The notes under the pieces were generated by a model. The model saw nothing but the letters and a program-made list of their open reading frames with translations, was not told where the DNA came from and did no database searches. This document shows positions 5,033 through 31,910 of a DNA stretch of 32,633 bases, in pieces; positions within the stretch are counted from its first letter, which is position 1; each line of letters opens with the position of its first letter. Origin of the DNA: an uncultured Staphylococcaceae bacterium. GTDB lineage: Bacteria; Bacillota_I; Bacilli_A; RFN20; CAG-826. Where the stretch lies: positions 1-32,633 of the forward strand of contig CAYJAE010000002.1 of assembly GCA_964368105.1 (NCBI GenBank). Reading direction: 5' to 3'. A program made the position numbers and the translations under genes.

Positions 5033-5484
5033 TCTCTAATTACCTTCACCATATAGTAAGCATCGTCACCATTAATGTAAAATCCTCGTTTAGTTGTAAT
5101 AATATGAAAACCATGACTTAAATATAAATTAATTGCTGGTTCGTTCTTTGTTCTCACTTCAAGTGTGATAGCTCGTACTTCTTCAAGGCTACTAATTACT
5201 TCAAGAAAGTGTTCCATTAACAGGGTGCCAAGTTTCTTTCCTTGAAGCGCGGGGTGAATCGCAAACTGAACAATTGAGACACTATCAAAAGTTATCCAAA
5301 AATGACAATAACCAATTACGACTTCGGCGTATGTCAAAATAAAAAAATGAGCGAGTTCATTTTCTAATTCGGTCGTGTAAGATTCTATCGGCCACGGATC
5401 AGGAAAAACTAGCCGCGCAATAGCGTCAACCGCGGAAATATCCTCTTTTGTCATAGGCCGAATAATTAGTTTCTTTTCTTCCAT
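5029..5484 (-). CDS. rimI: GNAT N-acetyltransferase, ribosomal-protein-alanine acetyltransferase RimI type
   Basis: 151 aa. GNAT acetyl-CoA motif QGKKLGTLLM. Canonical position between tsaB and tsaD, with a 4-nt overlap with tsaD. Confidence 0.85.
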   Translation of the reverse strand: MEEKKLIIRPMTKEDISAVDAIARLVFPDPWPIESYTTELENELAHFFILTYAEVVIGYCHFWITFDSVSIVQFAIHPALQGKKLGTLLMEHFLEVISSLEEVRAITLEVRTKNEPAINLYLSHGFHIITTKRGFYINGDDAYYMVKVIRE

Positions 5485-5487
5485 AAA

Positions 5488-6069
5488 TTATCCTTTTAAG
5501 TACACTGGTTTAAAGGAGAGTACATCCTCCACAAGTGTTTCAGCCTTTCGTTCGAGGAGCATATTAGAAAAGCGGTCAAATTCAGCGCTTTTTACATTTA
5601 AATGGGCACATTCACCGGCAATAACGTAGTCTTTTTCGTTTGCAAACTTTAAAATGTCTTCATTCTTCATAATTAAATCAGCGGCAAAATGCGCGTCTTT
5701 TTCATAAATGCCAACGTAGGAGCGCCCGTTACGAGCATCAAGAACCGAGAGTGTTTTTCTGTCTTTTACTTTATAAACACTTAAGCTTGAAACAGCGTAA
5801 AGTGGAATGTTTAAGCTGTAGGCCATGACTTTAGCAATCGTGACGGCGATCCGGACACCAGTAAAAGAACCGGGACCTTTAGTAACTATTACTTCATTAA
5901 TATCTTGCGGATTAATCTTGTTAGCACTAAGCATTTCTTGAATGCGCAAAGTTAAAAGTTCGCTTTGACGTTGAAAAGCGGCTTCTTCAAGAGAAGCAAT
6001 AATTTGTCCGTTACGCGCTAAAGCAAGCGCCATAACTTTACTTGAAGAATCTAAAAGTAAACTAATCAT
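5488..6069 (-). CDS. tsaB: tRNA threonylcarbamoyladenosine biosynthesis protein TsaB
   Basis: 193 aa. Has ILLDSSS...VTKGPGSFTGVRIAVTIAK, typical of the TsaB/YeaZ family. Overlaps tsaE by 4 nt. Confidence 0.9.
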   Translation of the reverse strand: MISLLLDSSSKVMALALARNGQIIASLEEAAFQRQSELLTLRIQEMLSANKINPQDINEVIVTKGPGSFTGVRIAVTIAKVMAYSLNIPLYAVSSLSVYKVKDRKTLSVLDARNGRSYVGIYEKDAHFAADLIMKNEDILKFANEKDYVIAGECAHLNVKSAEFDRFSNMLLERKAETLVEDVLSFKPVYLKG

Positions 6070-6524
6070 AAAGCTTTGATTAACTCCTTAATGAGACTCT
6101 CATAGCGTCCCTTACTTTCAAGGACAATATTGCGCTTTTCTAACTCAAGATGGGTAATAGTTATCGTTAAATATTCGTTTGGTAATAATTTAGCAATGTA
6201 GTCTGGCCACTCAATGACACTAACGCCTTCAGTGGCAATATATTCGTCGAGCCCAATATCGTCATCATTATCCGCTAAGCGATAAGCGTCAATATGAAAA
6301 AGGGGAATCCGACCATTTAGATAAATTTTAAGAATGTTAAAAGTAGGACTATTAACTTTTTCACCGACATTAAGTCCTTCAGCAATGCCTTTAGTTAGGG
6401 TTGTTTTTCCTGCTCCTAAGTCACCTTTAAGTAAAATAACGTCGCCTTCACGCAAAATAGCCGCTAGTTTTTGACCAACTTCTTTTGTTTCAAGAGCACT
6501 ATGGGTAATAAATTCATATCTCAT
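6066..6524 (-). CDS. tsaE: tRNA t6A biosynthesis ATPase TsaE
   Basis: 152 aa. Has P-loop GDLGAGKTTLTKG and PTFNI...HIDAYRL motifs. Confidence 0.9.
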   Translation of the reverse strand: MRYEFITHSALETKEVGQKLAAILREGDVILLKGDLGAGKTTLTKGIAEGLNVGEKVNSPTFNILKIYLNGRIPLFHIDAYRLADNDDDIGLDEYIATEGVSVIEWPDYIAKLLPNEYLTITITHLELEKRNIVLESKGRYESLIKELIKAL

Positions 6525-6533
6525 AACGCCAAA

Positions 6534-6542
6534 ATTATAGCA
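6534..6542 (-). promoter_or_regulatory. Extended -10 element TGCTATAAT, 9 nt upstream of the tsaE ATG, no SD (leaderless-type)
   Basis: The - strand reads tgctataat-tttggcgtt-ATG. Confidence 0.5.
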
Positions 6543-6574
6543 CGATTAAGTAATAATCGTTACTTAAAACCTTA

Positions 6575-7108
6575 CTAATCTTTATCTTCAGTTTCACGTT
6601 TAAAGACTTCGAAATAGCGGACTACTTCACTATCAATAAACGGGAAAATATTATTGTTAATCATCTCTACAATTTGATTTTGTTTAAAATCGATAATTTT
6701 AACTAAATCGTCGCTATATTGATAATGTTTAATGTGTCGTTCGTATTCTTTCTTATCAAGAAAACGGATCGCACTGTCACTATAACGTTTAATATCTAAA
6801 TCGTAATCAATGTACTTAGCAATCCCGGATTCAATAATGGTCGGGGAAGCAATATTTGTATAGAAAACAATGCCGCTTTCTTTAAGCATCGCAATAACGT
6901 TGTACCAATTTTTCTTACTAAAAAAGGAGACTGCTGGTTCTTTTGTATACCACCGACGACCGTTACCTTCTACTACTTGGGTACGGCGCGAGGCGACTAT
7001 TAACCAATCTTCGTCATTTTGTAATATGAATGAGCGACGCCAAAAACGATGGAGTCCTCCATCGTGTTTATAGCTTTGGATTTTAATCCACTTATCTGTA
7101 GTATCCAT
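6575..7108 (-). CDS. DUF402 (YgaC/Ntdp-like) nucleoside tri-/diphosphatase family protein
   Basis: 177 aa. IKIQSYKHDGGLHRFW...YTNIASP...IDYDLDIK is typical of the UPF0374/DUF402 family. Confidence 0.75.
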   Translation of the reverse strand: MDTTDKWIKIQSYKHDGGLHRFWRRSFILQNDEDWLIVASRRTQVVEGNGRRWYTKEPAVSFFSKKNWYNVIAMLKESGIVFYTNIASPTIIESGIAKYIDYDLDIKRYSDSAIRFLDKKEYERHIKHYQYSDDLVKIIDFKQNQIVEMINNNIFPFIDSEVVRYFEVFKRETEDKD

Positions 7109-7135
7109 AAAACACCTAACCTTGATAGATGTCTT

Positions 7136-7144
7136 ATTTTAGCA
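7136..7144 (-). promoter_or_regulatory. Extended -10-like element TGCTAAAAT upstream of the DUF402 gene (normal leader with SD)
   Basis: The - strand reads tgctaaaat...aaggttaggtgtttt-ATG. Confidence 0.4.
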
Positions 7145-7161
7145 TAGAAATTATGTTTTTT

Positions 7162-8190
7162 TTACTTTAATAGAGTAAAAAAGGCATTTAGAACCGTTAC
7201 GTCATCCGCATATTTATGAATTGCGGCGACCGGAACTGGTTCTTTATAAGGAACAACCATTAAATCACTACCATAAGATAGTGTGACCGCAACTTTATTT
7301 TCGTAAATTGAAACTAATACATCTGCGAGTTGATTGCTTGGTTTTACTTCTAAAAGTTTCGCTAAAGCTTCTTTATTTAAGAATTTAGCGGTTTTAGCGT
7401 CCGTTGCGTAAATGGTGTAATTTGGGTCGTCACTTATTACTTCGAGATCTTCAATGTCATCTGGTCCTTTTCCGTCTTTAAAGAAGTTTGGATCTGGTTT
7501 TAAGTAAACGATAATCCGTCCATCAATCGATTTATCACGTGAAGCACTAAGGAATTTGCCGTGAAAGGCAGCAGTTGCTCTTTTTCCGTCAGGACGGTAA
7601 GCAACAAAATCCGCTAAACTGACATTCCAGTGACCAATGTCATAACGCATTAAATTACGTGAATTAGTGTTAACGATATCTTTTAAGATTCGGGCTTTAA
7701 TAAAATCGTCACTTTCAATCAAAGCATTAAAATCATAAACATAATTTTCAAATTCACTATTGTCTAAAACAATCCGATTTAATTCACGATTGTAACTGTC
7801 CATATATAGACGGACTTTCGCGGTAATCTTTTTACGATGAAAATTATTAAAAACGGTTGAACCGATTAAAGCGACAATAATTGGCACTATTCCCGCCCAT
7901 TGGTTAATCTTAAATAACCAAACATAAGAGACAACAACCACTACGATCATTAAAGCAACAACAATATAGCTCACAAATTGCGACTTTTTATATGTTTTAA
8001 CAAAAGCGGCTTTCTCTGCTTCTAAACTTTCAATTGGTGGGAACTCTTCAACAACAGTGTTATCGCCTTCTTCCATATGTGATTCGGCTTGAATTACTTC
8101 AAGATTATCTATGTTTGTTTCAACTACTTCTGCTTCAACATCTTTTTCTTCAACGACATCGATGTCTTTTTCTAAGTCTTTTTCGTCCAT
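7162..8190 (-). CDS. Membrane protein with an acidic N-terminus, unknown function
   Basis: 342 aa. A D/E-rich N-terminus of about 65 aa is followed by two adjacent hydrophobic helices (about aa 73-115) and a soluble C-terminal domain of about 225 aa. SD GAGGGA. Starts 8 nt after the Sel1 gene stop. Confidence 0.65.
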   Translation of the reverse strand: MDEKDLEKDIDVVEEKDVEAEVVETNIDNLEVIQAESHMEEGDNTVVEEFPPIESLEAEKAAFVKTYKKSQFVSYIVVALMIVVVVVSYVWLFKINQWAGIVPIIVALIGSTVFNNFHRKKITAKVRLYMDSYNRELNRIVLDNSEFENYVYDFNALIESDDFIKARILKDIVNTNSRNLMRYDIGHWNVSLADFVAYRPDGKRATAAFHGKFLSASRDKSIDGRIIVYLKPDPNFFKDGKGPDDIEDLEVISDDPNYTIYATDAKTAKFLNKEALAKLLEVKPSNQLADVLVSIYENKVAVTLSYGSDLMVVPYKEPVPVAAIHKYADDVTVLNAFFTLLK

Positions 8191-8198
8191 TTTTCCCT

Positions 8199-8837
8199 CT
8201 ATTCTATATCTCGTAATAACCGCGCGGCTGTTCGGTCGCCTTTACGCGCTGCTCTACCTAAATATTCTTTTGCTTTTTCTTTATCTCGTAAGAGACCTCG
8301 GCCTTCTAAGTAACCACGACCAACTTCGACCTCCGCTTTAATATACCCTAAATTCGCGGCTTTTTCATAAAATGTGAATGCTTTTGTAACATCAATTTGT
8401 ACACCAAGGCCAAATTCATGAAAATAGCCGATTTTATAAAGTGCTTTAGCAAATTTTTGCTCTGCGGCTTTATGGTACCACTCAAGCGCTAATTGGTAAT
8501 TTTGCGGAACAACTGTTCCCCGTTCGTAGGCAATTCCCATATTATACTGGGCGGCATCATGCCCTTTAAGAGCTCCACTTTGAAAGTATTCAAAGCCTTT
8601 CATTTTATCTTCAGGGACACCTTTGCCATAAAAATAGCAAAACCCTAAAACAGTATCGGCAGGGGCGTAACCCATTTTTTCAGACTTGCGTGCAAGGTCA
8701 AGTCCGCGTTTATTATCTTCAGCGATTCCTTCACCTTGGACTAGGCGTCGGGCTAATTCATGTAGCGCTGCCGGATCATCAGTTAAAATTAAACGTTCCA
8801 ATTCTTGGTTTGTCTTTTTTGTGTAATTTAAAATCAT
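8199..8837 (-). CDS. Sel1-like (SLR) tetratricopeptide repeat protein
   Basis: 212 aa. Repeated units of about 36 aa of the type A.LG..Y..G.GV..D...A..W/Y..KAA..G...A. No signal peptide visible. Confidence 0.85.
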   Translation of the reverse strand: MILNYTKKTNQELERLILTDDPAALHELARRLVQGEGIAEDNKRGLDLARKSEKMGYAPADTVLGFCYFYGKGVPEDKMKGFEYFQSGALKGHDAAQYNMGIAYERGTVVPQNYQLALEWYHKAAEQKFAKALYKIGYFHEFGLGVQIDVTKAFTFYEKAANLGYIKAEVEVGRGYLEGRGLLRDKEKAKEYLGRAARKGDRTAARLLRDIE

Positions 8838-22505: not shown

Positions 22506-22528
22506 AACAAATAATGAAGAAGGGCATC

Positions 22529-22580
22529 AAAAAAGCCCACTGCAATGAGTTTTAAGTAAACTTTCCTCACTGGAGTGGGT
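22529..22580 (-). terminator. Rho-independent terminator closing the TIR-NACHT/MBL operon
   Basis: Arms 22535..22549 and 22566..22580 form a stem of about 14 bp. On the - strand RNA it has one mismatch and one G-U pair. It is followed by U6 (plus-strand A6 at 22529..22534). It starts 21 nt after the MBL gene stop. Confidence 0.75.
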
Positions 22581-22601
22581 TTTCGTATTTCATTTAGGAC
22601 A

Positions 22602-23348
22602 TCAAACGTCAAATTTTAGATTATCCGCCCCACAGATGATGCCCCGGTCCTCTAAAGTTTTTTTGTAGAGTTCATAGGCTGCGCCTTCAATCGCAGGATT
22701 TTGGTGGATAGCCACTAACTTCGCTTTAACTTCATTATGATCTAAATAGTTAAAAATTGTTTCGATTGGTGTGTGCATATGACCAGTTGTCGCAGCAAAG
22801 TCCCAAATTTCGATAAAAGCGAGTTTAAACTTATTTAATGGTCTTTCACTTTGAGCAAAATCATTATCAGTCGACACTAAGATTTCATCATTAATATTGA
22901 AACTGTAACTTTGATCACTATGAACATTAGCGTAAAAAGAAACTTTGGTTTTGCCAAGGTGGATAACATCATGTTCAGTGTAAGAGACAAACTTCGCGCG
23001 GTTTACAACTCCAGTTATAGAACCTCCCACATAAGGTGACTTATAGTAAGCTTGTAACAGTTCTCCTGGGGTTTTATTATAAGCATCGGCACTATAAATA
23101 ACGAGTTTATCATGGAGTTTTAGCTCTTCAATTAGGGTTAAACCTAAAGTGTGATCATAGTGATAATGTGATAAAAAGAGGTAGATTTTGTCGTATTTAT
23201 TAACAATATCGATGTATTTCTTTAAATTTAGCAGCCCTGTTCCAGCGTCAATTATGATACATGTTTCTTCGTCATAAATTAAGACTGACGTCGTTTCTTG
23301 GCCGCGTGAATGATACCAGCCATTACTTCCAAGTAAGATTACTTTCAT
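22602..23348 (-). CDS. Metallo-beta-lactamase-fold hydrolase (RNase Z/phosphodiesterase-like), coupled to the TIR-NACHT gene
   Basis: 248 aa. Starts LLGSNGWY...ETTSVLI...IIIDAGTG, then has H61-Y-H-Y-D65-H66 (HxHxDH). Later candidate metal ligands are H143, D161, H190/H192 and H215. The ATG is 1 nt after the TIR gene stop, and SD AAGGAG lies inside the upstream gene. Confidence 0.85.
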   Translation of the reverse strand: MKVILLGSNGWYHSRGQETTSVLIYDEETCIIIDAGTGLLNLKKYIDIVNKYDKIYLFLSHYHYDHTLGLTLIEELKLHDKLVIYSADAYNKTPGELLQAYYKSPYVGGSITGVVNRAKFVSYTEHDVIHLGKTKVSFYANVHSDQSYSFNINDEILVSTDNDFAQSERPLNKFKLAFIEIWDFAATTGHMHTPIETIFNYLDHNEVKAKLVAIHQNPAIEGAAYELYKKTLEDRGIICGADNLKFDV

Positions 23349-23349
23349 C

Positions 23350-26142
23350 TTATAAGTGCTCCTTCATATATTTTTTAACATAAGCGTACCAGCGTTCAAT
23401 ATCTTGATTTCTAAACTCTCGAACTGCACTTCCTTCTTCGAGTATATCTTGAAGAGCAAGAAGCGAGGCAATTTCAATCTCTGCTTCAATTGCTTGGGCG
23501 TGTTCTAAGCCTTTTTCAATCGCTTTTAGTGCTTCAGTTTTTTCTTTTAAGCCGATAAGCGCCATTGCTTCATATAAATATATTTGGAAAGTGTCATAAT
23601 GCGATTCAATAAGGGGCATGATTCGTTTAATACTTTCAACCGCTTTACCGTATTCTTTTAACCCGATTTCTAAAAAGATTGTGGTGTAAATATAGCGAAC
23701 GTAATAGCGGTCCTTTACTTTAAGACGGGTATAAATTTCGCTTGCTTTATCTAAATAATTTTTCGCTAGTTCATAATCCTTATGCCAAATTGCCGAGTCC
23801 GCAAAAACACGAGCGTACTCCGCAATAAACATTTCGTGATTAATCTTATCGTCGTCACTTGATAGTAAAGGAATCGCTTTTTGCAGCATTTTGATACTAT
23901 TTTCTATTTCAAGGTAAGAAGATTCCCAATCAAGTCGTTGGAAAGCAATTTTGCCTTTCATTAAATTCGCTAATGATTTTTCGTATAAAGCATCATTTTC
24001 TCCGCCCAGCGAAAGCGCTAATTTGGTGTAATGATTACTCTCATCAAAGTTAACGAGCTTGCGGTGACTCATCGCTAAAATGCTATAAATCTCGGCGACT
24101 TCCGCAATGGTCAATGCGTCCTTATTTACGAGTAACGGATTAAGTGCATCGACGCCTTCTTTAAATTTTTCCGTAATGTATAGGAAGTTACCTAAAATAA
24201 GTCCGCCATGTTGTCCGTAACTATCTGCCACCTCGTTAAAGGCTTTAATAAGACCGATTTTACTGAGTCTAAAGTAGAGGCCTGAATTATAGAAGTATTT
24301 ACGATGGGTCAAAACTACCTTCATAAAGGTTGGTGAGCGTAAAACATCATGGCAATCAATCTTGCTAAGAGTAAATAATACTTCGAGTTCACCAACAGCG
24401 TCACGCGCAAAAGTATCTAACCCATTTAATTCTAATCTCCGGGCAATGAAAGCTTCATCCTTTAAAAGTCCCGCGGCGTTTTCGGTCTGCCGTGAATTTA
24501 ATAAATGCTTTGTTAAGTAATTAAAGCCGTAATCGTTTAATCGTCCAGTGTAGTATTTGTTAAGGTAATACATACCAATGAAATTATTAGAACTTGACTT
24601 AAAAATACTATACTTTCCACTTGAACTACGATCAATTAACCAATCGATAACACTTTTGTGAATTGGAACAATGTTATTTTCAAAGACCGGAAACATTGCC
24701 GAAATATATTCAACCCGGTCGATAAAAACTTCTTCCTCAAGTTCTAAAATATCATTAATTTCTTCGAGAGGAAGTGGTTCATAGGCACTAACAATAAGTT
24801 GGAAAAGCGGCAAATAATCTTTGAGGTAATTTTGTGGGTTTTCTTTATCTTCAAATAAACGGGTAAAGTAATTTGAGTAAATATTGGTGAGCCCCCGCGG
24901 GAAAGCGCCTTGATCTAAAATACTAAAATGGCCCCGACGGACACTTTTTACAAATTGCGCGACATAAAGAAATCTTCCTTCACTTAGATTATAAATTTCA
25001 TTAACGGTTTGATCGATATCAGGAACAGTTTTAAGTTCCTCCGCTAAATCTTGATAAATAAAGCCAATTACATCCTTTTTGTTTTCTTCTTTATAATCTT
25101 CTAAATTAATACAAAGCTTTGATTTAAAACGTCGCATAATTTCTAACTCGGGCCGTGAAGTAACTAAGAGTTTAAACCATGCCGGAGTTTTCTCGAATTC
25201 ATTAGCCAAAACATCCGCGAGTTCGTTTTTAAGACCAAATTCGGCTTCATCAAGCGCATCAACAATCATGACAATCTTTTCGTTTTGCTTTGGTAAGCTG
25301 TGCAGCGGTTCAACAATTAAGTAAGAAAATAACCGACGGATATTTTTATCATCTAAATTATTTAAGTCATTGAGTTGGAGAAGTGCATTGCGGTAATCTT
25401 CGTTTTGCGTCGCTAAGTGATAAGCGAGAGACTTGATAACGGTTTTCGGATTAGCCCGGTCTGATTCATTATACTTACAAAAGTGAATTGCTTTAATTTC
25501 TGGGTTTTTATGACAAAGTTGAGCAACGATACTTGTTTTACCGCTTCCGGCGTTACCGGTTAAAAACATTATTTTTTCATCGCTCTCTAGCCAATTATTA
25601 TAAATATCTTTGATCCATTCCCGACCAAAGAAGTGCTTATTATGATTAAAGACATAACCATCATTATCAAGGGGACTGAGGGCCATCATCAACTGATTCA
25701 TTTCCCCTTCCATTAATAGCCGTTCTTCGCCTCTTAATACTTTAATAATTTGCGCAAGTTTAGTGCTATAAAATTCATCGTTTATCGTTCCGTCTTCCCG
25801 GTAATAATTAGCGATATTAATATACTGGACTCTCGTTAAGAAGAGAGGTGGTTCCACAGGCTGAATCATTACTGGTAAAAGTTCTTTATTCGTTGTCTTC
25901 GCTAAAGCAAGTTCATCTAAACAAACTCCGCCTGGTCTACGTAGGGAATGGGGACTCATAAAAAACACAACCCATTTTGATTCTTTTATGCCGTTTTCAA
26001 TCGATTCATCAAACCTTGAGCCACCCGTAATATCAGTTTCGTCAATCCAAACATTAAAATTTTCATTCCTTAAATCCTGGTAGATTTTCTTAACGAGTTC
26101 AGCATGATTATCGTGACCATAACTAATAAATATTTTCATCAT
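23350..26142 (-). CDS. TIR-NACHT(STAND NTPase)-TPR protein, candidate anti-phage sensor/effector
   Basis: 930 aa. TIR, aa 1 to about 135: MMKIFISYGHDNH...NVWIDE...VVFFMSP...C74LDE77L. STAND/NACHT: F171FGRE, Walker A G196NAGSGKT, Walker B IVMIVD295ALDE299, L326VTSRP. From about aa 640 to 925 there are TPR-like helical repeats. A strong SD GGAGGA lies 6 nt upstream of the ATG. Confidence 0.88.
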   Translation of the reverse strand: MMKIFISYGHDNHAELVKKIYQDLRNENFNVWIDETDITGGSRFDESIENGIKESKWVVFFMSPHSLRRPGGVCLDELALAKTTNKELLPVMIQPVEPPLFLTRVQYINIANYYREDGTINDEFYSTKLAQIIKVLRGEERLLMEGEMNQLMMALSPLDNDGYVFNHNKHFFGREWIKDIYNNWLESDEKIMFLTGNAGSGKTSIVAQLCHKNPEIKAIHFCKYNESDRANPKTVIKSLAYHLATQNEDYRNALLQLNDLNNLDDKNIRRLFSYLIVEPLHSLPKQNEKIVMIVDALDEAEFGLKNELADVLANEFEKTPAWFKLLVTSRPELEIMRRFKSKLCINLEDYKEENKKDVIGFIYQDLAEELKTVPDIDQTVNEIYNLSEGRFLYVAQFVKSVRRGHFSILDQGAFPRGLTNIYSNYFTRLFEDKENPQNYLKDYLPLFQLIVSAYEPLPLEEINDILELEEEVFIDRVEYISAMFPVFENNIVPIHKSVIDWLIDRSSSGKYSIFKSSSNNFIGMYYLNKYYTGRLNDYGFNYLTKHLLNSRQTENAAGLLKDEAFIARRLELNGLDTFARDAVGELEVLFTLSKIDCHDVLRSPTFMKVVLTHRKYFYNSGLYFRLSKIGLIKAFNEVADSYGQHGGLILGNFLYITEKFKEGVDALNPLLVNKDALTIAEVAEIYSILAMSHRKLVNFDESNHYTKLALSLGGENDALYEKSLANLMKGKIAFQRLDWESSYLEIENSIKMLQKAIPLLSSDDDKINHEMFIAEYARVFADSAIWHKDYELAKNYLDKASEIYTRLKVKDRYYVRYIYTTIFLEIGLKEYGKAVESIKRIMPLIESHYDTFQIYLYEAMALIGLKEKTEALKAIEKGLEHAQAIEAEIEIASLLALQDILEEGSAVREFRNQDIERWYAYVKKYMKEHL

Positions 26143-26411
26143 AAATTATCCTCCTTCATTAAATTCAGAGTTATTTTAGTTAGTCCTGTTTTGTTAATAT
26201 TAGTTTAGCATATTCATCATGTTTTGCGGCTATTTTTTTTGAAAACTATACAAACTGGTCAAACCGCAAATGACATTTAGGCTAAATTCGCCACTTTGTT
26301 TAGGCATAATTTCATAATCTAACCTTAAAAAGAAAGAGAAAGACTTTTGTTTACTCTTAACAAACATAGTTTGTTGCCGCTTTTCTTTCATAGCCCCATA
26401 TTTCCAATTCA

Positions 26412-26420
26412 TGATATAAT
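26412..26420 (+). promoter_or_regulatory. Extended -10 element TGATATAAT for the tctB-like/tctA-like/mevalonate operon
   Basis: The + strand reads tgatataat-taaaattcaaacGGAGtttttagag-ATG(26446). Confidence 0.5.
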
Positions 26421-26445
26421 TAAAATTCAAACGGAGTTTTTAGAG

Positions 26446-26727
26446 ATGAAAAAAAAGAAGACGATGGTACGTTTGTGGGGAGATCATATTGTAATTTCTT
26501 CACTCTTTATTGGGTTATTAATAAGTTTATCGTTAGTAGGTCTTACTTTTGGAATAATTGCGCTTTTAGGCCATTACTATCCAAGTATTGCCGACAATAA
26601 AAAAGATTTAATTTATATATTTGGCACTCTCGCGGTTTTAATCGGTTTTGTTATTAATAACTTATGGATTAAACCGCAACGTAATATTATTACGAAAAAA
26701 CAAAGTGATACCGAGGAAGTAAAATAA
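26446..26727 (+). CDS. Small membrane protein in the TctB position (function inferred from position only)
   Basis: 93 aa from MKKKKTMVRLW. SD GGAG lies 9 nt upstream. It has 2-3 TM helices. Its TAA overlaps the ATG of the TctA-like gene. The track ORF start at 26347 lies upstream of the promoter and is rejected. Confidence 0.55.
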   Translation: MKKKKTMVRLWGDHIVISSLFIGLLISLSLVGLTFGIIALLGHYYPSIADNKKDLIYIFGTLAVLIGFVINNLWIKPQRNIITKKQSDTEEVK

Positions 26728-28133
26728 TGGTAATTACCTTTTCGCTTATTTTACAAATGATCGGTATCTCGCTTTTAATGACTTTAATTTATATCATTAT
26801 CGGTATTATCCCCGGCACTGACGAAACTTCAGTAATTGTACCGATGACAGTAATTCTTGTTTCGCTCCATCTTAATCCCTTAGTCATTATGGCGGGCTTT
26901 ATTAGTGCGGTTGTTACGCTGAATATTGCTGACTCTATTCCGACCGCGATAACGTCCATTCCAGGAGGAGTCATGTCTACACCCCTCGTTGGTCCTAGTC
27001 AAATCCTTAAAAAACACGGCTACACAGCTTACAGTGTGCGCTGGATGATGCTCGGTTCATTAATCGGCGTCTTAGTAAGTCTTCCGCTTGCCCTTGCCTT
27101 TTGGGGAATCTTTGAATTTATCAGTGTTCAAACTGGCTTAGAAATATCAACATTTATCAAAAACTACTCAGAATACATCTTTTTAGGTGGCGCACTCTTA
27201 ATGAGCTTAACGAGTAAAAAGAAACTCGTAAGTCTTCTTTCAATTATTCCGTTTGGTTTCTTAACTGCTTTTATGCGTAATCCGAGTGCTTTACTTAATA
27301 ACACCCTCTTAAATTTTCTTGGTCAAGGCAAAACCTTATCAATGACCCCCTTCTTTTTAGCAATAACGACTGGACCTTTAATTTTTGGTTTATTTGAACT
27401 TGTTTTCCCAAGTGTTTTCCAAAAACAAAAAGTTGAAGGTAAGATTGACGTTGTTTTAGAAGAAAATATTAAAACCGTGAAAACTGGCACGAAGAAAGTA
27501 GTTAAGAAAACCGCAATTGCAAGTGCCCTAGGTAGTTTAATGTTTTTCCTCTCGCCGGTTGGTGTCACCATGATGCTTAGTGAATTTAGTATTAAGGATG
27601 AGAAAGACGAAGTTCAACAAGCACTCCAAGGAGTCGCGGTTGTGAACGGACTATCAAGCGCAACTTACCTTGCGGGTATTCTTATTTCGCTCTTTGTTTT
27701 TGCTTTCCCGCTTTCTCCCGCTGCTCTTGGTCCTGGATCAGTTATTTTTGGAACAGGCGCAAACGGTGCTGACGGCGTTTTTGTGTCCGCTGGTAATACT
27801 GGCTTAACAATTGCTAAACCTACGCTTTTAATGCCAATCCTTATCGGACTAGCAATTGGCGTTTCTTTAACAGTCTGGCTTGGAATGAAGTACTCTTCAA
27901 AAATGACTGAATTAGTTTTTAAATATATTTCCCAAGAAACAGTCTTAATCTTTTTGTTCTCTATTATTGCGCTTCTCTCTCTTGCCGAAGCGGGGATGTA
28001 CGGCTTAATTGTTGTCCTTCTGATTGGTCTCTTTAGTGGCTGGATTAATAAGTTTGGTGCAGGCTACGGCGTGCAGTTTATGGCCCTTTACGCAGGCAAT
28101 TTGTTTGTTAAATTCATTTTAATGTTATTTTAG
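26727..28133 (+). CDS. TctA/DUF112-family permease (large membrane subunit of tripartite tricarboxylate-type transporters), divergent
   Basis: 468 aa, polytopic, with a two-fold internal pattern. GIIPGTDETSVIVPM and SIPGGVMSTPLVG in the first half resemble TctA LPGLGP and NVPGD. LSPVGVTMM and LGPGSVIFG in the second half do likewise. No TctC-like binding protein gene is nearby. Confidence 0.55.
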   Translation: MVITFSLILQMIGISLLMTLIYIIIGIIPGTDETSVIVPMTVILVSLHLNPLVIMAGFISAVVTLNIADSIPTAITSIPGGVMSTPLVGPSQILKKHGYTAYSVRWMMLGSLIGVLVSLPLALAFWGIFEFISVQTGLEISTFIKNYSEYIFLGGALLMSLTSKKKLVSLLSIIPFGFLTAFMRNPSALLNNTLLNFLGQGKTLSMTPFFLAITTGPLIFGLFELVFPSVFQKQKVEGKIDVVLEENIKTVKTGTKKVVKKTAIASALGSLMFFLSPVGVTMMLSEFSIKDEKDEVQQALQGVAVVNGLSSATYLAGILISLFVFAFPLSPAALGPGSVIFGTGANGADGVFVSAGNTGLTIAKPTLLMPILIGLAIGVSLTVWLGMKYSSKMTELVFKYISQETVLIFLFSIIALLSLAEAGMYGLIVVLLIGLFSGWINKFGAGYGVQFMALYAGNLFVKFILMLF

Positions 28134-28141
28134 GAGTAAGT

Positions 28142-29035
28142 ATGGACGGATATAGTTATGGAAAAATTATACTAAGCGGTGAACATAGTGTCGTCTATGG
28201 TAAACCCGCTTTAGCAATTCCTTTTTACGCTTTGCGAAGTGAAGTAGTCTTAACTCCCGCGCCTTCCTTTACGTGGGAAACAAAGTACTTTAACGGCCCC
28301 CTTAGTGAAGGTCCTGCTGAACTTGAAGGTCTTTACGTCTTACTGCGTAAACTATTTAAAGATTTTCCCCGTATTAGTCCCGTTAACATTGCAATTCGCT
28401 CAAACCTTCCTGAAAAAAGTGGACTCGGCAGTAGCGCAAGTATCGCTAAAGCCTTAGTGGACGCTTTTAATAATCATTTTCGCTTAGGTTTAACCAAGGA
28501 AGATTACTTTGCGTATCTCACAATTTCCGAAAATGTTTATCATCATAAAGCAAGTGGCATTGACGCCTCTGTTGTAATTTATGAAACTCCACTTTTATAT
28601 ATTCCTCCGCAAATTACGCCTATTTCGCTGCAAATTACCGGTTTTTTAGTCGCTTTCTACTCAAACACCAATAGCGCAACTAAAGACGCAGTCGCGCTTG
28701 TCTCCCGTCATCCACGGCGTGATGAACTTGTAAGTGAACTAGAGAAAAACACCAAATTACTACAAGAAGCAGCGAAGAGTAATAATTTTGAACTCCTTGC
28801 TACTTCCTTTAATAATAGTCACCTCGCCCTTCGTGAACTTGGGGTTTCTTCTAAGGTATTAGAAGAGTTACGCGCAAAAATCCTTGCAAATGGCGCCGGA
28901 GGTGTTAAAATAACGGGCGGTGGCATGGGTGGCTGTCTCATTGCTTTGTTTAAAACAAAAGCAGCGGCTACTAAAGCCCAAAATACATTGAAAGAGAATC
29001 CAAGTTGGTTAATTGATTTAGGAAAAGTGTCATGA
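28142..29035 (+). CDS. mvk: Mevalonate kinase
   Basis: 297 aa in the GHMP kinase family. Has GKIILSGEHSVVYGKPALA, GLGSSASIAKA and GGGMGGC. SD AGGAG overlaps the tctA-like stop. Confidence 0.92.
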   Translation: MDGYSYGKIILSGEHSVVYGKPALAIPFYALRSEVVLTPAPSFTWETKYFNGPLSEGPAELEGLYVLLRKLFKDFPRISPVNIAIRSNLPEKSGLGSSASIAKALVDAFNNHFRLGLTKEDYFAYLTISENVYHHKASGIDASVVIYETPLLYIPPQITPISLQITGFLVAFYSNTNSATKDAVALVSRHPRRDELVSELEKNTKLLQEAAKSNNFELLATSFNNSHLALRELGVSSKVLEELRAKILANGAGGVKITGGGMGGCLIALFKTKAAATKAQNTLKENPSWLIDLGKVS

Positions 29036-29985
29036 AGTTTAAACGAGCAAATGTAAATATTGCCCTCTTAAAATATTGGGGAAAGGCTGATCAACGGTTA
29101 AAAATACCCCAACAAACAAGTGTTTCAGTAACTGCGGAAGCTTTTTACACCCGGACGAATGTTACGCTTGATTCAAGCTTACCGAAAGATAAAGTTTTTC
29201 TTGATGGTAAAGAATTAACCTCACTCCAATATAACCGTGTTATTCAACATTTAAATGAATTACGCCGTCGCTTTAACCGCACGGAGTATTGTGTTGTTAC
29301 TTCAATGAATAATGTCCCCTTACGCGCTGGCTTTGCTAGTAGTGCAAGTGCCTTTGCGGCCCTTACTGCGGCTTATCTTGACGCAATTGGCGAAAAGGTT
29401 TCCAAAAAAGATATGTCACGCTTAGCACGATTAGGTTCAGGAAGCGCAACACGCTCGGTCCATGGCGGCTTTGTTATTTGGCGGAAAGGCTTTGATCATG
29501 AAAGCAGTTACGCGGAACAACTGAAAATTAAATGGCCAGAATTTCGTTTAATCTTTACCGTTATTGATCCAAGTGTTAAATCTATTTCTAGTCAAGTCGG
29601 AATGCAGTTATGTGTTGAAAAGTCCCGTTCCTTCCCTACCTACGTCACTAAATGCAGTGAAATGGTTGCGCCGATGATTGAAGCGCTCGAAAAGCAAGAT
29701 TTAAAAGCAATTGGCGAAATTAGTGAACGAAGTGCGGAATTAATGCGCAATGTTATGCTTGAAGCTGGCGTTGACTATCACACTCCCAAAACACAAGTCA
29801 TGATTAATCGTATTCATACTTTACGTGATAAATACAATTTACCAGTTTATTACACTTTCGATGCTGGTCCGAATTTAATCTTAATAACCACTAAAGATTA
29901 TGTCGACGAAATATTACCGCACTTAAGAGACGTTGAAACGGTTGTCTCTAAAGTCGGCGGAGGCATTATTGATGAAGATATTTGA
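29032..29985 (+). CDS. mvaD: Diphosphomevalonate decarboxylase
   Basis: 317 aa. Has NIALLKYWGK, GFASSASAFAAL and LARLGSGSATRSVHGGFV. ATGA overlap with mvk. Confidence 0.92.
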   Translation: MKFKRANVNIALLKYWGKADQRLKIPQQTSVSVTAEAFYTRTNVTLDSSLPKDKVFLDGKELTSLQYNRVIQHLNELRRRFNRTEYCVVTSMNNVPLRAGFASSASAFAALTAAYLDAIGEKVSKKDMSRLARLGSGSATRSVHGGFVIWRKGFDHESSYAEQLKIKWPEFRLIFTVIDPSVKSISSQVGMQLCVEKSRSFPTYVTKCSEMVAPMIEALEKQDLKAIGEISERSAELMRNVMLEAGVDYHTPKTQVMINRIHTLRDKYNLPVYYTFDAGPNLILITTKDYVDEILPHLRDVETVVSKVGGGIIDEDI

Positions 29986-30946
29986 GAAAGTTCCCGGTAA
30001 ACTTTATATCATTGGTGAATATAATGTTTTAAAAAGTGGTCATAGTGCCTTAATTGCGCCTGTTAATCTCTTTTTACAAGGAACCCTCATCCCTAACGGA
30101 AAAACAACAATTATTGAAGGCGGCAAAACTTATCCTTATACTGAGCTTTTAAGTAAAGCCCCGCATCAATTAGAAAACACCGTTGCGACTATTACATTCT
30201 TTAATGAATACTTAGCCAGTCACAGGATTAGTATTCGTGAATTTGAATATACAATTGAAAATAACTTAATTAGTGACGAACAAATAAAGTATGGACTTGG
30301 GAGCAGTGCCGCAAGTATTGTTTTAACTTTAAAACTTTTAAACCGCCTTTATAACACTAATCTCTCGCCGCTTACCCTTTTTAAAATGGCAGTGCTCATT
30401 CAACGCCGACTAAATACGCTTAGCTCTGGGGGCGACTTAGCGGTTGCGCTTTATGATATTCCGCTTTTTTATACACGTTACGACCTTGAATGGCTCTTAA
30501 ATGAAAAAGAAGACTTAGCGCTTTTAGAACAAAACTGGCCACTTTTAACAATTAAACTAATGACAACTGTCCCACTCTTCTTAGTGGGCTGGACCAAAGA
30601 AACAATAAAACCTTCACCTAACGGCATTATTGATCCTTCTTTCTTTATTCGCGCTCAAAAACTTGTGGAAAACTATTACTTAACCTTTGATTCAAGCTAT
30701 ATTGCCCAGTATCAAGAACTTTTAACGGAGTTAGCTTTTGAGAAGAAAAACATGATGACCCCTAAACTTAGTGCCTTAATTAGTAGCGCTAATTCATTAG
30801 GAGTAGCCGCTAAAATTTCTGGAGCAGGCTATGGCGACTGTGGGATTGCGCAGATTGATGATCTTAACACGATTACACCACTCGTAAATTTATGGCACAA
30901 TAATGATATCGAAGTCTTAAATATATGGAGAAGAGATAATGAGTAA
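29972..30946 (+). CDS. mvaK2: Phosphomevalonate kinase (GHMP type)
   Basis: 324 aa from MKIFEKVPGKLYIIGEYNVL. SD GGCGGAGG lies upstream and the gene overlaps mvaD by 14 nt. Has GLGSSAASIV and SGAGYGDCG motifs. Confidence 0.88.
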   Translation: MKIFEKVPGKLYIIGEYNVLKSGHSALIAPVNLFLQGTLIPNGKTTIIEGGKTYPYTELLSKAPHQLENTVATITFFNEYLASHRISIREFEYTIENNLISDEQIKYGLGSSAASIVLTLKLLNRLYNTNLSPLTLFKMAVLIQRRLNTLSSGGDLAVALYDIPLFYTRYDLEWLLNEKEDLALLEQNWPLLTIKLMTTVPLFLVGWTKETIKPSPNGIIDPSFFIRAQKLVENYYLTFDSSYIAQYQELLTELAFEKKNMMTPKLSALISSANSLGVAAKISGAGYGDCGIAQIDDLNTITPLVNLWHNNDIEVLNIWRRDNE

Positions 30947-31910
30947 AAGCCGGAAAGATGATCATCTGAAGTTAGCCTTAGATTCTTCCCTTACTAATAA
31001 CGAATTTAGTGCTATTCGTTTTAAGCACGTTAGTATTCCTGATTATTCATTAAATGATATTAATCTTGAAACTGAAATACTTGGAAAAGTTTTCCCCCTT
31101 CCTTTCTACATTAATGCGATGAGTGGCGGGAACGCTTCCGGAAACATCATGAATTTAAAACTCGCTGCGCTTGCAAGTCACTTTAATCTGCCGTTTTTCC
31201 TCGGCTCCCAATCAGTCGCACTAAAAGACGCTAAAGAGGAAGTCGCTTATCTTGAATTACGAAATAAATATCCTAATTTATTTATTGTCGCTAACGTTAA
31301 TCCTAATGTTAGTGTGGAAGAGGCAAAGCGAGCCATTAAAATGGTCAGCGCAAACGCCTTAGCCATTCACATTAATAGTGTTCAAGAGTTAGTAATGAGT
31401 GAAGGTGACCGTGACTTTTCACTTTGGAGTAAAAATATTAAAGCAATACTTAAGAATATTAGTGTTCCCGTTATTATTAAAGAAGTTGGCTACGGGATGA
31501 GTCACGAAACACTTGTTAAACTAAGTAACTTAGGCGCTCATTACATTGATATAAGTGGGGCTTCCGGCACTAACTTTACGAAAATCGAATTAGCGAGATC
31601 AGGCGTAGAAAATTCTTCTCTGCTTGATTTTGGTCGTCCTACCATTTCTTCGCTTCGTGACGCCCTTACTTTTGACGCCTTTAGTGTTCACGCTAGTGGG
31701 GGCATTAACAACGCTGGCAGTATTGTTAAGTGTCTCGCTTTCGGCGCTCAAGCTGTCGGGATGGCGCATTACTTCTTAAAACTAAGTGAATTACCGCTTG
31801 AAGAAATGATTAAAACTGTTGAATTATTAATTACGGACATTAAAAAGATTTTATTATTACTCAATGTAAAAAGCATTAAAGAATTAAAAGTCGAACATTT
31901 AGAATTTTAA
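30939..31910 (+). CDS. fni: Type 2 (FMN-dependent) isopentenyl-diphosphate delta-isomerase
   Basis: 323 aa. Has an N-terminal RKDDHL, TIM-barrel motifs IKEVGYGMS and DISGASGTNF, and ASGGI. Confidence 0.92.
   Translation: MSKSRKDDHLKLALDSSLTNNEFSAIRFKHVSIPDYSLNDINLETEILGKVFPLPFYINAMSGGNASGNIMNLKLAALASHFNLPFFLGSQSVALKDAKEEVAYLELRNKYPNLFIVANVNPNVSVEEAKRAIKMVSANALAIHINSVQELVMSEGDRDFSLWSKNIKAILKNISVPVIIKEVGYGMSHETLVKLSNLGAHYIDISGASGTNFTKIELARSGVENSSLLDFGRPTISSLRDALTFDAFSVHASGGINNAGSIVKCLAFGAQAVGMAHYFLKLSELPLEEMIKTVELLITDIKKILLLLNVKSIKELKVEHLEF

What the first reader, a model, noticed from the sequence alone, without database searches (positions are those of the whole stretch)
22602..23348. Role of the MBL-fold partner: signal-processing phosphodiesterase or nuclease effector
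Seen: the protein keeps the full binuclear-metal signature (H61xH63xD65H66 plus downstream His/Asp candidates H143, D161, H190/H192, H215). It is short and soluble, like RNase Z, PhnP or cyclic-nucleotide phosphodiesterase members of the fold. Established: MBL-fold enzymes include class II cyclic-nucleotide phosphodiesterases, RNase Z/beta-CASP nucleases, and the phage anti-Pycsar enzyme Apyc1, which destroys cyclic-nucleotide immune signals. TIR domains can make cyclic ADPR isomers, and in plants also 2',3'-cNMPs. Inference: I see three testable models. (a) A host-encoded hydrolase removes the TIR product to set an activation threshold or reset the system. (b) An RNA or DNA nuclease effector is switched on by the activated TIR-NACHT oligomer or its product. 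(c) The enzyme converts the TIR product into the active signal.
Basis: inference. Interest (0 to 1): 0.65.

Follow-up and report, generated by a model that had tools for sequence, protein, structure and literature searches.

The report
TIR-NACHT defence cassette with phosphodiesterase partner
The small metallo-enzyme gene is a real, intact nucleotide phosphodiesterase that travels as a fixed two-gene unit with a bacterial NLR-like TIR immune protein, and comparison with relatives suggests it trims or destroys a small nucleotide product rather than acting as the killing nuclease.

Summary
Window 22602-23348 (minus strand) encodes a 248-aa MBL-fold protein with H61xH63xD65H66, H143, D161, E180, H190/H192 and H215. 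The AF2 model has pLDDT 94.5. Its nearest solved relatives are the arm-less class II phosphodiesterases BA1088, YhfI and Apyc1, not RNase Z or beta-CASP nucleases.

It lies 1 nt after a 930-aa TIR-NACHT-TPR gene, and a terminator-like hairpin follows it. The pair is a discrete cassette. A relative with 79% protein identity shares only window 22604-26168 and has different flanks.

Sixteen non-redundant lineages, with TIR-NACHT identity down to 27%, keep the MBL gene immediately downstream. The two proteins' distances correlate (r=0.84).

- In one derived subclade a Cof-type HAD phosphatase sits in the same slot.
- A few intact TIR-NACHT genes have no evident partner.
- Cassette-borne MBLs share all conserved residues with homologues that stand alone among housekeeping genes (up to 71% identical).

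These facts favour an accessory small-molecule phosphohydrolase that acts on a TIR-related nucleotide (confidence about 0.5). They argue against a nuclease effector. Substrate and direction of effect remain inferred. I found no published description of the pairing. I rate it a new variant of a known kind, interest 0.6.

The parts
22602..23348 (-). 248-aa arm-less MBL-fold (class II, YhfI/BA1088/Apyc1-like) phosphodiesterase, second gene of the cassette. HxHxDH lies at nt 23151-23168, H143 at 22920-22922, D161 at 22866-22868, H192 at 22773-22775 and H215 at 22704-22706.
23350..26142 (-). 930-aa TIR-NACHT-WHD-TPR STAND protein, first gene of the cassette. TIR spans about aa 1-145 with the invariant CLDE77L motif. 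Walker A is G199SGKT203 and Walker B is D295ALDE299. The TPR-like C-terminal domain spans about aa 561-930 and contains the conserved DRYYVRY motif.
23359..23365 (-). GAAGGAG ribosome-binding site for the MBL gene, inside the end of the TIR-NACHT ORF. The upstream TAA stop (23350-23352) and the MBL ATG (23346-23348) are 1 nt apart, which suggests translational coupling.
   Evidence: read directly from the sequence
26150..26157 (-). GAAGGAGG ribosome-binding site 7 nt upstream of the TIR-NACHT ATG.
   Evidence: read directly from the sequence
22528..22585 (-). Terminator-like hairpin followed by a U-run, immediately after the MBL stop codon. It marks the end of the two-gene operon.
   Evidence: dG -21.3 kcal/mol, z -3.75, 0 of 200 shuffles as good. 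The simple scan missed it because its loop is longer than 8 nt.
22604..26168 (-). Extent of the mobile two-gene cassette. This is the only stretch of the window with nucleotide similarity (76%) to locus L001, where the same gene pair lies between different neighbours.

Best explanation
The ORF encodes a catalytically intact, arm-less class II MBL phosphodiesterase of the YhfI/BA1088/Apyc1 kind. It is the second gene of a two-gene mobile cassette whose first gene is a TIR-NACHT-TPR STAND (NLR-like) protein.

Proposed working. The TPR/NACHT part senses infection and oligomerises. That activates the N-terminal TIR NADase, which is the effector. The co-translated MBL enzyme is a constitutively active small-molecule phosphohydrolase that acts on an NAD-derived or related nucleotide tied to TIR activity. 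It is an accessory. Either it clears basal or spent product (threshold and reset, like ring nucleases or plant NUDT7), or it destroys ADPR-type products so that NAD+ depletion cannot be reversed, for example by phage NAD+ reconstitution.

Shown here: the fold and catalytic residues, the operon structure, the cassette boundaries, deep co-inheritance with the TIR-NACHT gene, replacement by a HAD phosphatase in one subclade, and identity of the conserved residues with stand-alone homologues.

Inferred: the substrate, the direction of the effect, the NADase output of the TIR domain, and the anti-phage role.
For: (1) Enzyme type. The profile matches BA1088 (5e-17), YhfI (4e-13) and Apyc1 (4e-9) over full length. 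Foldseek's top hits are the same proteins, followed by nucleotide-bound Brucella MBLs and PhnP-family enzymes, ahead of RNase Z. YhfI and Apyc1 are experimentally shown cNMP phosphodiesterases (PMC9117128; PMC11724313).

(2) Linkage. There is a 1-nt stop/start gap, the MBL gene has its own RBS, and a terminator hairpin follows it. Similarity between the window and L001 is confined to the two genes. Sixteen non-redundant lineages keep the MBL gene directly after a full-length TIR-NACHT homologue, down to 27% TIR-NACHT identity. The Mantel correlation of the two proteins' distances is r=0.84, p=2e-4.

(3) Partner swap. In one derived TIR-NACHT subclade (L091, L092, L137) a Cof-type HAD-IIB phosphatase occupies the same slot, overlapping or abutting the TIR-NACHT stop. 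It matches PF08282 at 1e-62 to 1e-70 and scores 205 bits on TIGR00099 against a cut-off of 137. Its DxDGT and GDGxND motifs are intact. L092/L137 similarity covers exactly the two genes.

(4) Dispensability. Intact TIR-NACHT genes with E77, Walker A/B and the C-terminal motif exist without an evident partner: L094, L102, and L101, which is followed by an ordinary dut gene.

(5) Same enzyme as the stand-alone form. The 16 cassette-borne and 29 stand-alone MBLs share the same conserved positions. Stand-alone homologues sit next to a P-type ATPase, NrdD, a PHP protein or MerR, and reach 63-71% identity to cassette-borne ones.

(6) The TIR domain keeps the catalytic Glu, and its closest solved relatives are NAD+ hydrolases: SARM1, AbTIR and the SPARTA TIR.
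Against: No substrate was tested.

A threshold or reset role normally implies a signal receptor, and none is conserved in the cassette.

Class II phosphodiesterases are known for 3',5'-cNMPs, which TIR domains are not known to make. Known TIR products (ADPR, cADPR isomers) contain pyrophosphate or glycosidic links rather than a simple cyclic phosphodiester.

The HAD swap is a single evolutionary event (three lineages, one clade). It could reflect a different function rather than an equivalent one.

The window's own lineage is the most divergent MBL. It has IEIW instead of the clade's HECW, and it deviates at about 19 positions that are at least 85% conserved in one or both groups. Its activity may therefore have shifted.

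Anti-phage function is unproven for this clade, and the window's flanks are housekeeping genes.
Confidence: 0.5

Rival explanations
1. Input-side control. The hydrolase keeps a cellular or phage-made nucleotide metabolite low. That metabolite is the ligand sensed by the conserved TPR/NACHT part, much as NMN/NAD+ is sensed by SARM1. The enzyme then sets the trigger threshold rather than processing the TIR product. Alternatively the enzyme is a guarded target whose inhibition by phage is what gets sensed.
For: The hydrolase partner occurs only with this one conserved C-terminal domain. None of 18 TIR-NACHT homologues with other C-termini whose downstream ORFs were inspected has an MBL or other phosphohydrolase partner. 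The C-terminal domain is unusually conserved for a phage-protein sensor, with many invariant positions. Partner exchange between two phosphohydrolases is compatible with removal of one ligand.
Against: The correlation with the C-terminal domain is equally explained by common descent of one clade. The C-terminal domain does not diverge disproportionately when the MBL is replaced by the HAD (identity ratios 0.83-0.95 for all three domains). TPR domains usually bind proteins or peptides. No ligand is known.
Confidence: 0.15
2. Nuclease effector. The MBL protein cuts RNA or DNA once the TIR-NACHT oligomer or its product switches it on.
For: MBL-fold domains serve as effectors in Avs proteins and in the HamMAB system (PMC13581612; PMC13069673). 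There are weak N-terminal matches to RNase Z models (TIGR02651, E 2e-9).
Against: - The RNase Z score is 36.9 against a cut-off of 293, and the match covers only the N-terminal half.
- At 248 aa there is no room for the tRNA-binding arm or a beta-CASP domain. The best structural matches are arm-less small-molecule enzymes.
- No PADLOC model matches.
- There is no sensor domain to receive a signal.
- Stand-alone homologues with the same conserved residues live in housekeeping contexts.
- The slot is filled by a sugar-phosphatase-type HAD in a subclade.
- The TIR domain already provides an effector.
Confidence: 0.1
3. Signal maturation. The enzyme converts the primary TIR product into the active molecule.
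For: The genes are tightly co-translated and deeply co-inherited. PhnP-family and related MBL enzymes do process ribose-linked cyclic phosphates and diphosphates (structural neighbours 6b9v and 3g1p).
Against: No receptor or effector for such a signal is conserved in or next to the cassette. A diesterase and a monoesterase would not yield the same product. Intact partner-less TIR-NACHT genes exist.
Confidence: 0.1
4. No functional coupling. A housekeeping phosphodiesterase gene merely hitch-hikes next to the TIR-NACHT gene.
For: Most clade members in reference genomes are stand-alone. No residues are specific to the cassette-borne group.
Against: The gene has kept the same position and orientation, with overlapping or abutting stop and start codons, in 16 lineages across Bacillota, Bacteroidota and Actinomycetota-type contigs. 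The cassette boundaries enclose exactly the two genes. The two proteins have co-diverged.
Confidence: 0.07

Closest known systems
Class II MBL-fold cyclic-nucleotide phosphodiesterases: B. subtilis YhfI, B. anthracis BA1088, and phage/bacterial Apyc1
   Same: They have the same arm-less fold of about 245-250 aa, the same HxHxDH, H, D, (H)E, H and H ligand set, and full-length profile and structural matches. Bacterial chromosomal Apyc1 homologues are already known to be common and active on cNMPs (PMC11724313).
   Different: Identity to the solved proteins is only about 13-19%. The score on the NCBIfam equivalog NF041851 is 29 against a cut-off of 400. The clade has its own motifs (GW, SHYHLDH, HECW, HQNP). 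No phage members were found. It is encoded as the fixed partner of a TIR-NACHT gene rather than alone, next to a cyclase, or in a phage. Substrate is unknown.
Bacterial NACHT / TIR-STAND defence proteins (bNACHT, TIR-NLR, Avs)
   Same: The partner gene has the tripartite layout of an N-terminal TIR effector, a NACHT NTPase with the D[GAS]hDE Walker B motif, and C-terminal TPR repeats. This matches the architecture described for bNACHT proteins (bioRxiv 10.1101/2022.07.19.500537).
   Different: The bNACHT preprint read here contains no mention of a lactamase-fold partner. No PADLOC model covers the protein full-length; only the TIR domain hits, and PDC-M16A and mad8 give weak partial hits in the NTPase region. 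Here a separate phosphohydrolase gene is an ancestral, conserved second component. No member of this clade has been tested against phage.
Host-encoded signal-degrading enzymes: type III CRISPR ring nucleases and plant NUDT7
   Same: In both, a defence pathway that works through nucleotide products carries or relies on a hydrolase that removes them. Ring nucleases degrade cOA (PMC13148439 abstract). NUDT7, a negative regulator of TIR-NLR signalling, hydrolyses 2',3'-cAMP/cGMP and suppresses TIR cell death (bioRxiv 10.1101/2021.11.09.467869).
   Different: The folds differ (CARF and others, Nudix). Those pathways have a separate signal receptor or effector, whereas no such gene is conserved here. 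The analogy is functional and untested.
MBL-fold effectors of Avs proteins and HamMAB
   Same: An MBL-fold protein is associated with a STAND or defence NTPase.
   Different: There the MBL is the required effector, fused or specialised. Here no PADLOC model matches the protein. Its nearest relatives are small-molecule phosphodiesterases, and it can be replaced by a HAD phosphatase.

Membership tests
Metallo-beta-lactamase superfamily (PF00753) | HxHxDH motif plus downstream His/Asp/His metal ligands | tested here: met
   H61, H63, D65, H66, H143, D161, H192 (or H190) and H215 are present. They are 100% conserved in 16 cassette-borne homologues.
Metallo-beta-lactamase superfamily (PF00753) | Score above the curated Pfam threshold, and an alpha-beta/beta-alpha sandwich fold | tested here: met
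   The score is 38.6 bits against a cut-off of 22.7. The AF2 model has pLDDT 94.5. Foldseek finds 418 PDB matches at E<=1e-3, and those listed are MBL-fold proteins.
Apyc1 / class II cNMP phosphodiesterase (NF041851, PF23023) | Sequence membership at the curated cut-off | tested here: not met
   NF041851 scores 29.2 bits against a cut-off of 400, and only residues 1-154 match. The collection's precomputed annotation lists PF23023 for homologues P0001, P0002, P0057, P0043 and P0093. The Pfam copy scanned here returned no such hit. The relation is homology at superfamily/clan level, with profile E 4e-9 to 7u2r.
Apyc1 / class II cNMP phosphodiesterase (NF041851, PF23023) | Homodimer in which a loop and residues from the opposing protomer complete the nucleotide pocket | not testable with these tools
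   Only a monomer model without coordinates was available. The segment that aligns to the Apyc1 loop region (aa ~88-119) has similar length but is not conserved in sequence.
Apyc1 / class II cNMP phosphodiesterase (NF041851, PF23023) | Hydrolysis of 3',5'-cNMPs, including cCMP and cUMP | not testable with these tools
   This needs a biochemical assay.
Apyc1 / class II cNMP phosphodiesterase (NF041851, PF23023) | Phage-borne counter-defence context | tested here: not met
   The cassette is chromosomal between housekeeping genes. The IMG/VR scan found no relative, and GenBank phages gave only weak partial hits.
RNase Z (TIGR02651) | Curated score, and the flexible tRNA-binding arm (exosite) | tested here: not met
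   The score is 36.9 bits against a cut-off of 292.95, with only the N-terminal half aligned. The protein is 248 aa against about 300-320 aa. Arm-less proteins are the best structural matches, and target-normalised TM is lower for RNase Z.
beta-CASP nucleases (RNase J, CPSF73, Cas14 type) | beta-CASP domain inserted in the MBL core | tested here: not met
   Matches cover only the MBL core, with target-normalised TM 0.23-0.32. The protein is too short to hold the insertion.
Bacterial NACHT (bNACHT) TIR-STAND defence proteins (applies to the partner gene) | NACHT NTPase with Walker A and the D[GAS]hDE Walker B motif, an N-terminal effector domain, and C-terminal repeats | tested here: met
   GSGKT199-203 and DALDE295-299 are invariant. 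TIR_2 matches at 1.6e-23 with invariant E77. The C-terminus gives TPR matches.
Bacterial NACHT (bNACHT) TIR-STAND defence proteins (applies to the partner gene) | Demonstrated protection against phage | not testable with these tools
   This needs experiment. Among 58 ORFs of at least 150 aa flanking 13 related cassettes (L001 to L165), a handful hit defence models: TIR effectors, WYL, phospholipase, AriA and mads.
Thoeris | A TIR protein plus a signal-activated ThsA-type (or Macro/caspase-type) effector gene | tested here: not met
   The cassette holds only two genes, and no third gene is conserved among loci. The TIR domain matches ThsB models only weakly.
Pycsar | A pyrimidine cyclase (PycC) plus a cNMP-activated effector | tested here: not met
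   There is no cyclase in or next to the cassette. The CAP12/PycTIR match is only E 0.009.

The most novel reading that the evidence does not exclude
A bacterial NLR-like immune module carries its own enzyme that hydrolyses the TIR-derived nucleotide. It would act either as the first host-encoded off-switch or threshold for a bacterial TIR output, a direct prokaryotic counterpart of plant NUDT7 acting on TIR-NLR signalling. Or it would act as a 'lock' that destroys ADPR-type products so that phage NAD+-reconstitution pathways (NARP1; PMC12774641 and 10.1101/2024.02.11.579819, abstracts) cannot undo NAD+ depletion. The MBL-to-HAD exchange would then mark an arms-race-driven choice of which bond to cut.
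Probability: 0.3. Interest if true: 0.75.

Novelty: new variant of a known kind. Interest (0 to 1): 0.6.

Why it matters
TIR-STAND (NLR-like) proteins are regarded as self-contained sensors with a fused effector. Here an ancestral, conserved second gene encodes a nucleotide phosphohydrolase, and a different phosphohydrolase can replace it. That points to an unrecognised layer in bacterial TIR immunity: processing of the small-molecule output, or of the trigger.

It would link three separate themes. These are host Apyc1-like enzymes, whose cellular role is still open. Another is signal-clearing enzymes such as ring nucleases and plant NUDT7. The third is the contest over NAD+ depletion and reconstitution.

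The cassette is only 3.6 kb. It occurs in cultured strains (Olsenella sp. An293, Marinifilum breve JC075), so the question can be tested directly.

Tried and rejected
- PADLOC scan of the MBL protein gave no hit, so it cannot be filed under any catalogued defence component.
- blastn against plasmids gave no match.
- An IMG/VR scan and tblastn against GenBank phages found no relatives of this clade. I therefore dropped the idea that it is a captured phage anti-defence gene.
- The word-index protein search gave only 4 homologues. The exhaustive profile search was needed.
- The GTDB genome scan did not contain the window's own organism. The best hit was about 28-31% identical.
- I tested whether cassette-borne MBLs form a clade apart from stand-alone ones. 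The NJ tree and nearest-neighbour identities show them interleaved. I also looked for group-specific residues and found only one trivial position.
- I looked for a conserved third gene. Neighbour clustering found none. Three 706-aa neighbours proved unrelated, at 12-15% identity.
- The dUTPase after the L101 TIR-NACHT gene is an ordinary Dut (172 bits against a cut-off of 103). I treat it as a neighbour, not a partner.
- An AF2 test of TIR-NACHT:MBL docking was not run. The tool returns no coordinates or PAE, so an interface could not have been read.
- The simple promoter/terminator scan was uninformative: promoter-like sites were no more frequent than in shuffles (11 found, 15.5 expected), and it missed the long-loop terminator.
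- Literature searches and the papers read gave no description of a TIR-NACHT + MBL/HAD pair. The supplements of the 2026 STAND survey were not held.
Full report
**1. Observation**

The ORF list gives a 248-aa ATG-started ORF at exactly 22602..23348, on the minus strand.

- Pfam Lactamase_B matches above its curated threshold (38.6 bits against 22.7, E 1.4e-9).
- A profile of the protein's own clade matches three solved proteins over their whole length. These are BA1088/1zkp (E 5e-17), B. subtilis YhfI/6kns (4e-13) and Apyc1/7u2r (4e-9).
- An AF2 model built on 115 homologues has mean pLDDT 94.5 and pTM 0.92.

E180 is a further conserved active-site residue. The H190/H192 register is ambiguous.

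**2. What the enzyme is**

Foldseek against the PDB ranks the hits in this order:

- BA1088, Apyc1 (7u2r, 7u2s, 7t28) and YhfI come first.
- Two Brucella MBL-like proteins crystallised with GMP/AMP, a PhnP-family diphosphatase and PhnP come next.
- RNase Z / ELAC1 / ZiPD follow.
- beta-CASP nucleases match only through the MBL core (target-normalised TM 0.23-0.32).

NCBIfam scores are far below every equivalog cut-off: RNase Z 36.9 against 293, and the cNMP-degrading phosphodiesterase model 29.2 against 400.

The protein is therefore an arm-less class II MBL phosphodiesterase that forms its own clade. It is not a member of the RNase Z or Apyc1 equivalogs. According to Hobbs et al. (PMC9117128), YhfI prefers cAMP/cGMP and Apyc1 cleaves all four cNMPs. 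Tesson et al. (PMC11724313) report that over 80% of Apyc1 homologues lie in non-mobile bacterial DNA.

**3. Operon and cassette**

The upstream ORF, 23350..26142 on the same strand, is a 930-aa TIR-NACHT(NPHP3_N)-winged-helix-TPR protein.

- Its TAA stop and the MBL ATG are 1 nt apart.
- A GAAGGAG RBS lies 10 nt before the MBL start.
- A GAAGGAGG RBS precedes the first gene.
- A hairpin plus U-run follows the MBL stop (dG -21.3, z -3.75).

The flanks are housekeeping genes. SHMT and PFK lie on one side. A TctA transporter and the mevalonate operon lie on the other. GC content shows no anomaly.

Locus L001 carries the same pair at 79% protein identity, between CysRS/SpoU and SecE/NusG. Nucleotide similarity to the window is confined to 22604-26168, which is exactly the two genes and the first RBS. 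So this is a discrete two-gene mobile cassette. The window sequence itself recurs in manure, wastewater and pig-gut metagenomes.

**4. How conserved the pairing is**

The three most similar distant MBLs found by the exhaustive search (P0057, P0043, P0093; 28-32% identity) each sit immediately after a 929-931-aa TIR-NACHT protein.

A metagenome scan with a TIR-NACHT alignment recovered 78 loci. I sorted them by C-terminal domain:

| TIR-NACHT homologue type | Loci | What lies immediately downstream |
|---|---|---|
| Full-length, same C-terminal domain | 15 | MBL gene |
| TIR+NACHT shared, different C-terminus (the 18 long enough to inspect downstream) | 18 | Never an MBL or other phosphohydrolase |

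Together with four GTDB genomes this gives 16 non-redundant TIR-NACHT+MBL lineages. Two of those genomes are cultured strains: Olsenella sp. An293 and Marinifilum breve JC075.

In a NACHT-region tree the MBL-linked state covers all the deep branches, so it is ancestral for the clade. TIR-NACHT and MBL pairwise distances correlate (Pearson 0.84, Mantel p 2e-4). All nine TIR-NACHT proteins first aligned share the catalytic Glu (CLDE77), Walker A, DALDE, and many invariant positions through the TPR-like C-terminus.

**5. Partner swap**

Full-length TIR-NACHT homologues that lack an MBL fall mainly in one derived subclade.

- In L091, L092 and L137 (L133 and L156 are near-identical (about 95%) copies of L137) the slot directly after the TIR-NACHT stop holds a 264-272-aa Cof-type HAD-IIB phosphatase. 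The start overlaps the stop by 4-11 nt in two of them and lies 3 nt after it in the third.
- It matches PF08282 at E 1e-62 to 1e-70 and scores 205-210 bits on TIGR00099 against a cut-off of 137.
- Its closest equivalog is a sugar phosphatase. The DMDGT and GDGxND motifs are intact.
- L092 and L137 are similar only across 4998-8584, exactly the two genes. This too is a cassette.
- L094 and L102 have intact TIR-NACHT genes and no evident partner. L101 is followed by an ordinary dut gene.
- All of these keep E77, Walker A/B and the C-terminal DRYYxRY motif. The C-terminal domain does not diverge disproportionately between MBL- and HAD-linked proteins.

**6. Relation to stand-alone MBLs**

In GTDB genomes most members of the same MBL clade stand alone in unrelated contexts. 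Examples are positions downstream of a copper P-type ATPase, NrdD, a PHP protein or MerR. Apart from antisense ORFs over the MBL gene itself, the only neighbour family shared by more than four loci of the clade is the TIR-NACHT gene.

Cassette-borne and stand-alone enzymes share the same conserved positions (GW, DAGTG, SHYHLDH, HS.PS, TD, HECW, HTS, HQNP). No real group-specific signature appears. Some cassette-borne MBLs are 63-71% identical to stand-alone ones, for example L017 to L028 and L008 to L015.

Locus L009 shows a TIR-NACHT gene broken into two ORFs while the MBL gene stays intact. That is a plausible route from cassette to stand-alone gene.

The enzyme therefore has a generic, non-toxic activity that does not depend on the TIR-NACHT protein.

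**7. Mechanism**

The TIR domain is the canonical N-terminal effector of a STAND protein. Its nearest solved relatives are NAD+ hydrolases: bacterial TIRs, SARM1, AbTIR, the SPARTA TIR and Cat1.

The evidence in sections 2-6 is best explained by an accessory small-molecule phosphohydrolase that acts on a nucleotide connected with TIR activity:

- the partner belongs to a small-molecule phosphodiesterase family;
- it is active-site-intact and identical in signature to harmless stand-alone homologues;
- a phosphomonoesterase can replace it;
- it is occasionally dispensable.

Two sub-readings remain open.

- **Clearance of basal or spent product (threshold and reset).** The analogues are ring nucleases and plant NUDT7, a negative regulator of TIR-NLR signalling with 2',3'-cNMP phosphodiesterase activity.
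- **Destruction of ADPR-type products.** NAD+ depletion could then not be reversed by phage NAD+ reconstitution, which reuses those products (abstracts).

I give this family of explanations 0.5. The rivals are:

| Rival | Confidence |
|---|---|
| Input-side control of a ligand sensed by the conserved TPR/NACHT part | 0.15 |
| Nuclease effector | 0.10 |
| Signal maturation | 0.10 |
| Mere hitch-hiking | 0.07 |

The main weaknesses are these:

- No substrate has been tested.
- No receptor for a putative signal is conserved in the cassette.
- Class II enzymes are known for 3',5'-cNMPs, which TIR domains are not known to make.
- The HAD swap is a single evolutionary event.
- The window's own MBL is the most divergent of its clade, with IEIW in place of HECW and many other deviations.

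**8. Novelty**

TIR-NACHT architectures, host Apyc1-like enzymes and MBL-fold defence effectors are each known. I found no description of a conserved TIR-NACHT + MBL (or HAD) cassette in the searchable literature. PADLOC v2 has no model for the MBL protein and none that covers the TIR-NACHT protein full-length. I rate it a new variant of a known kind. Anti-phage function of this clade is itself unproven. Only a few neighbours of related cassettes hit defence models.

Noticed in passing
L091:3516-4310, L092:7821-8639, L137:7820-8623 (also L133, L156): In one subclade of the same TIR-NACHT family a Cof-type HAD-IIB phosphatase (about 267 aa, catalytic motifs intact) replaces the MBL gene in the same overlapping or abutting downstream slot. 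The TIR-NACHT+HAD pair is itself a two-gene cassette with different flanks.
   Followed up: yes
L009:418-3274 compared with L008:418-3953: The TIR-NACHT gene is split into 454-aa and 239-aa ORFs, with about 0.7 kb missing, while the downstream MBL gene is intact. This may be a snapshot of how stand-alone MBL genes arise from decaying cassettes, or it may be an assembly artefact.
   Followed up: partly
L092:4842-7817: The TIR-NACHT reading frame is interrupted near the start of the TIR domain: profile positions 3-30 and 32-925 lie in separate stop-free stretches. The gene may be N-terminally truncated or a pseudogene although its HAD partner is intact.
   Followed up: no
window 22602-23348 (protein positions 13, 64, 72, 86-87, 141, 158-162, 179-181, 220): The window/L001 lineage deviates at about 19 positions that are at least 85% conserved in one or both groups (cassette-borne, stand-alone), for example IEIW in place of HECW. 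It keeps all metal ligands. This suggests accelerated evolution or a shifted specificity in this lineage.
   Followed up: partly
L032:2985-6077 (Marinifilum breve JC075; the same in L106): This TIR-NACHT protein has an extra N-terminal segment of about 50 aa with CPKC...CDDC, which looks like a zinc ribbon, ahead of the TIR domain.
   Followed up: no
L008:7235-9953 (minus strand): A second, large (over 1100 aa) TIR-domain protein lies three genes from the cassette. L093 and L104/L109 also have an extra small TIR-domain ORF upstream. These look like defence-island neighbourhoods.
   Followed up: partly
L062:3190-5052: In an Anaerolineae contig an out-group MBL homologue lies within a 620-aa ORF, between ORFs of 999 and 1130 aa. 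This may be a fused or otherwise different architecture.
   Followed up: no
L003:283-2403 and L003:6023-6259 (the same in L004, L005): In this lineage the cassette is flanked by a 706-aa and a 78-aa ORF with no Pfam or NCBIfam match. The 706-aa ORFs near the cassettes in L137 and L165 are unrelated to it (12-15% identity).
   Followed up: partly
window 26347-28133 (+) and 28142-31910 (+): The cassette is inserted next to a small membrane ORF, a TctA-family transporter, and a mevalonate-pathway operon (mevalonate kinase, diphosphomevalonate decarboxylase, an unannotated 337-aa ORF, and an FMN-dependent dehydrogenase that may be a type 2 IDI). This fits a low-GC organism that uses GGAGG-type ribosome-binding sites. 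The organism itself was not in the GTDB representative set.
   Followed up: partly
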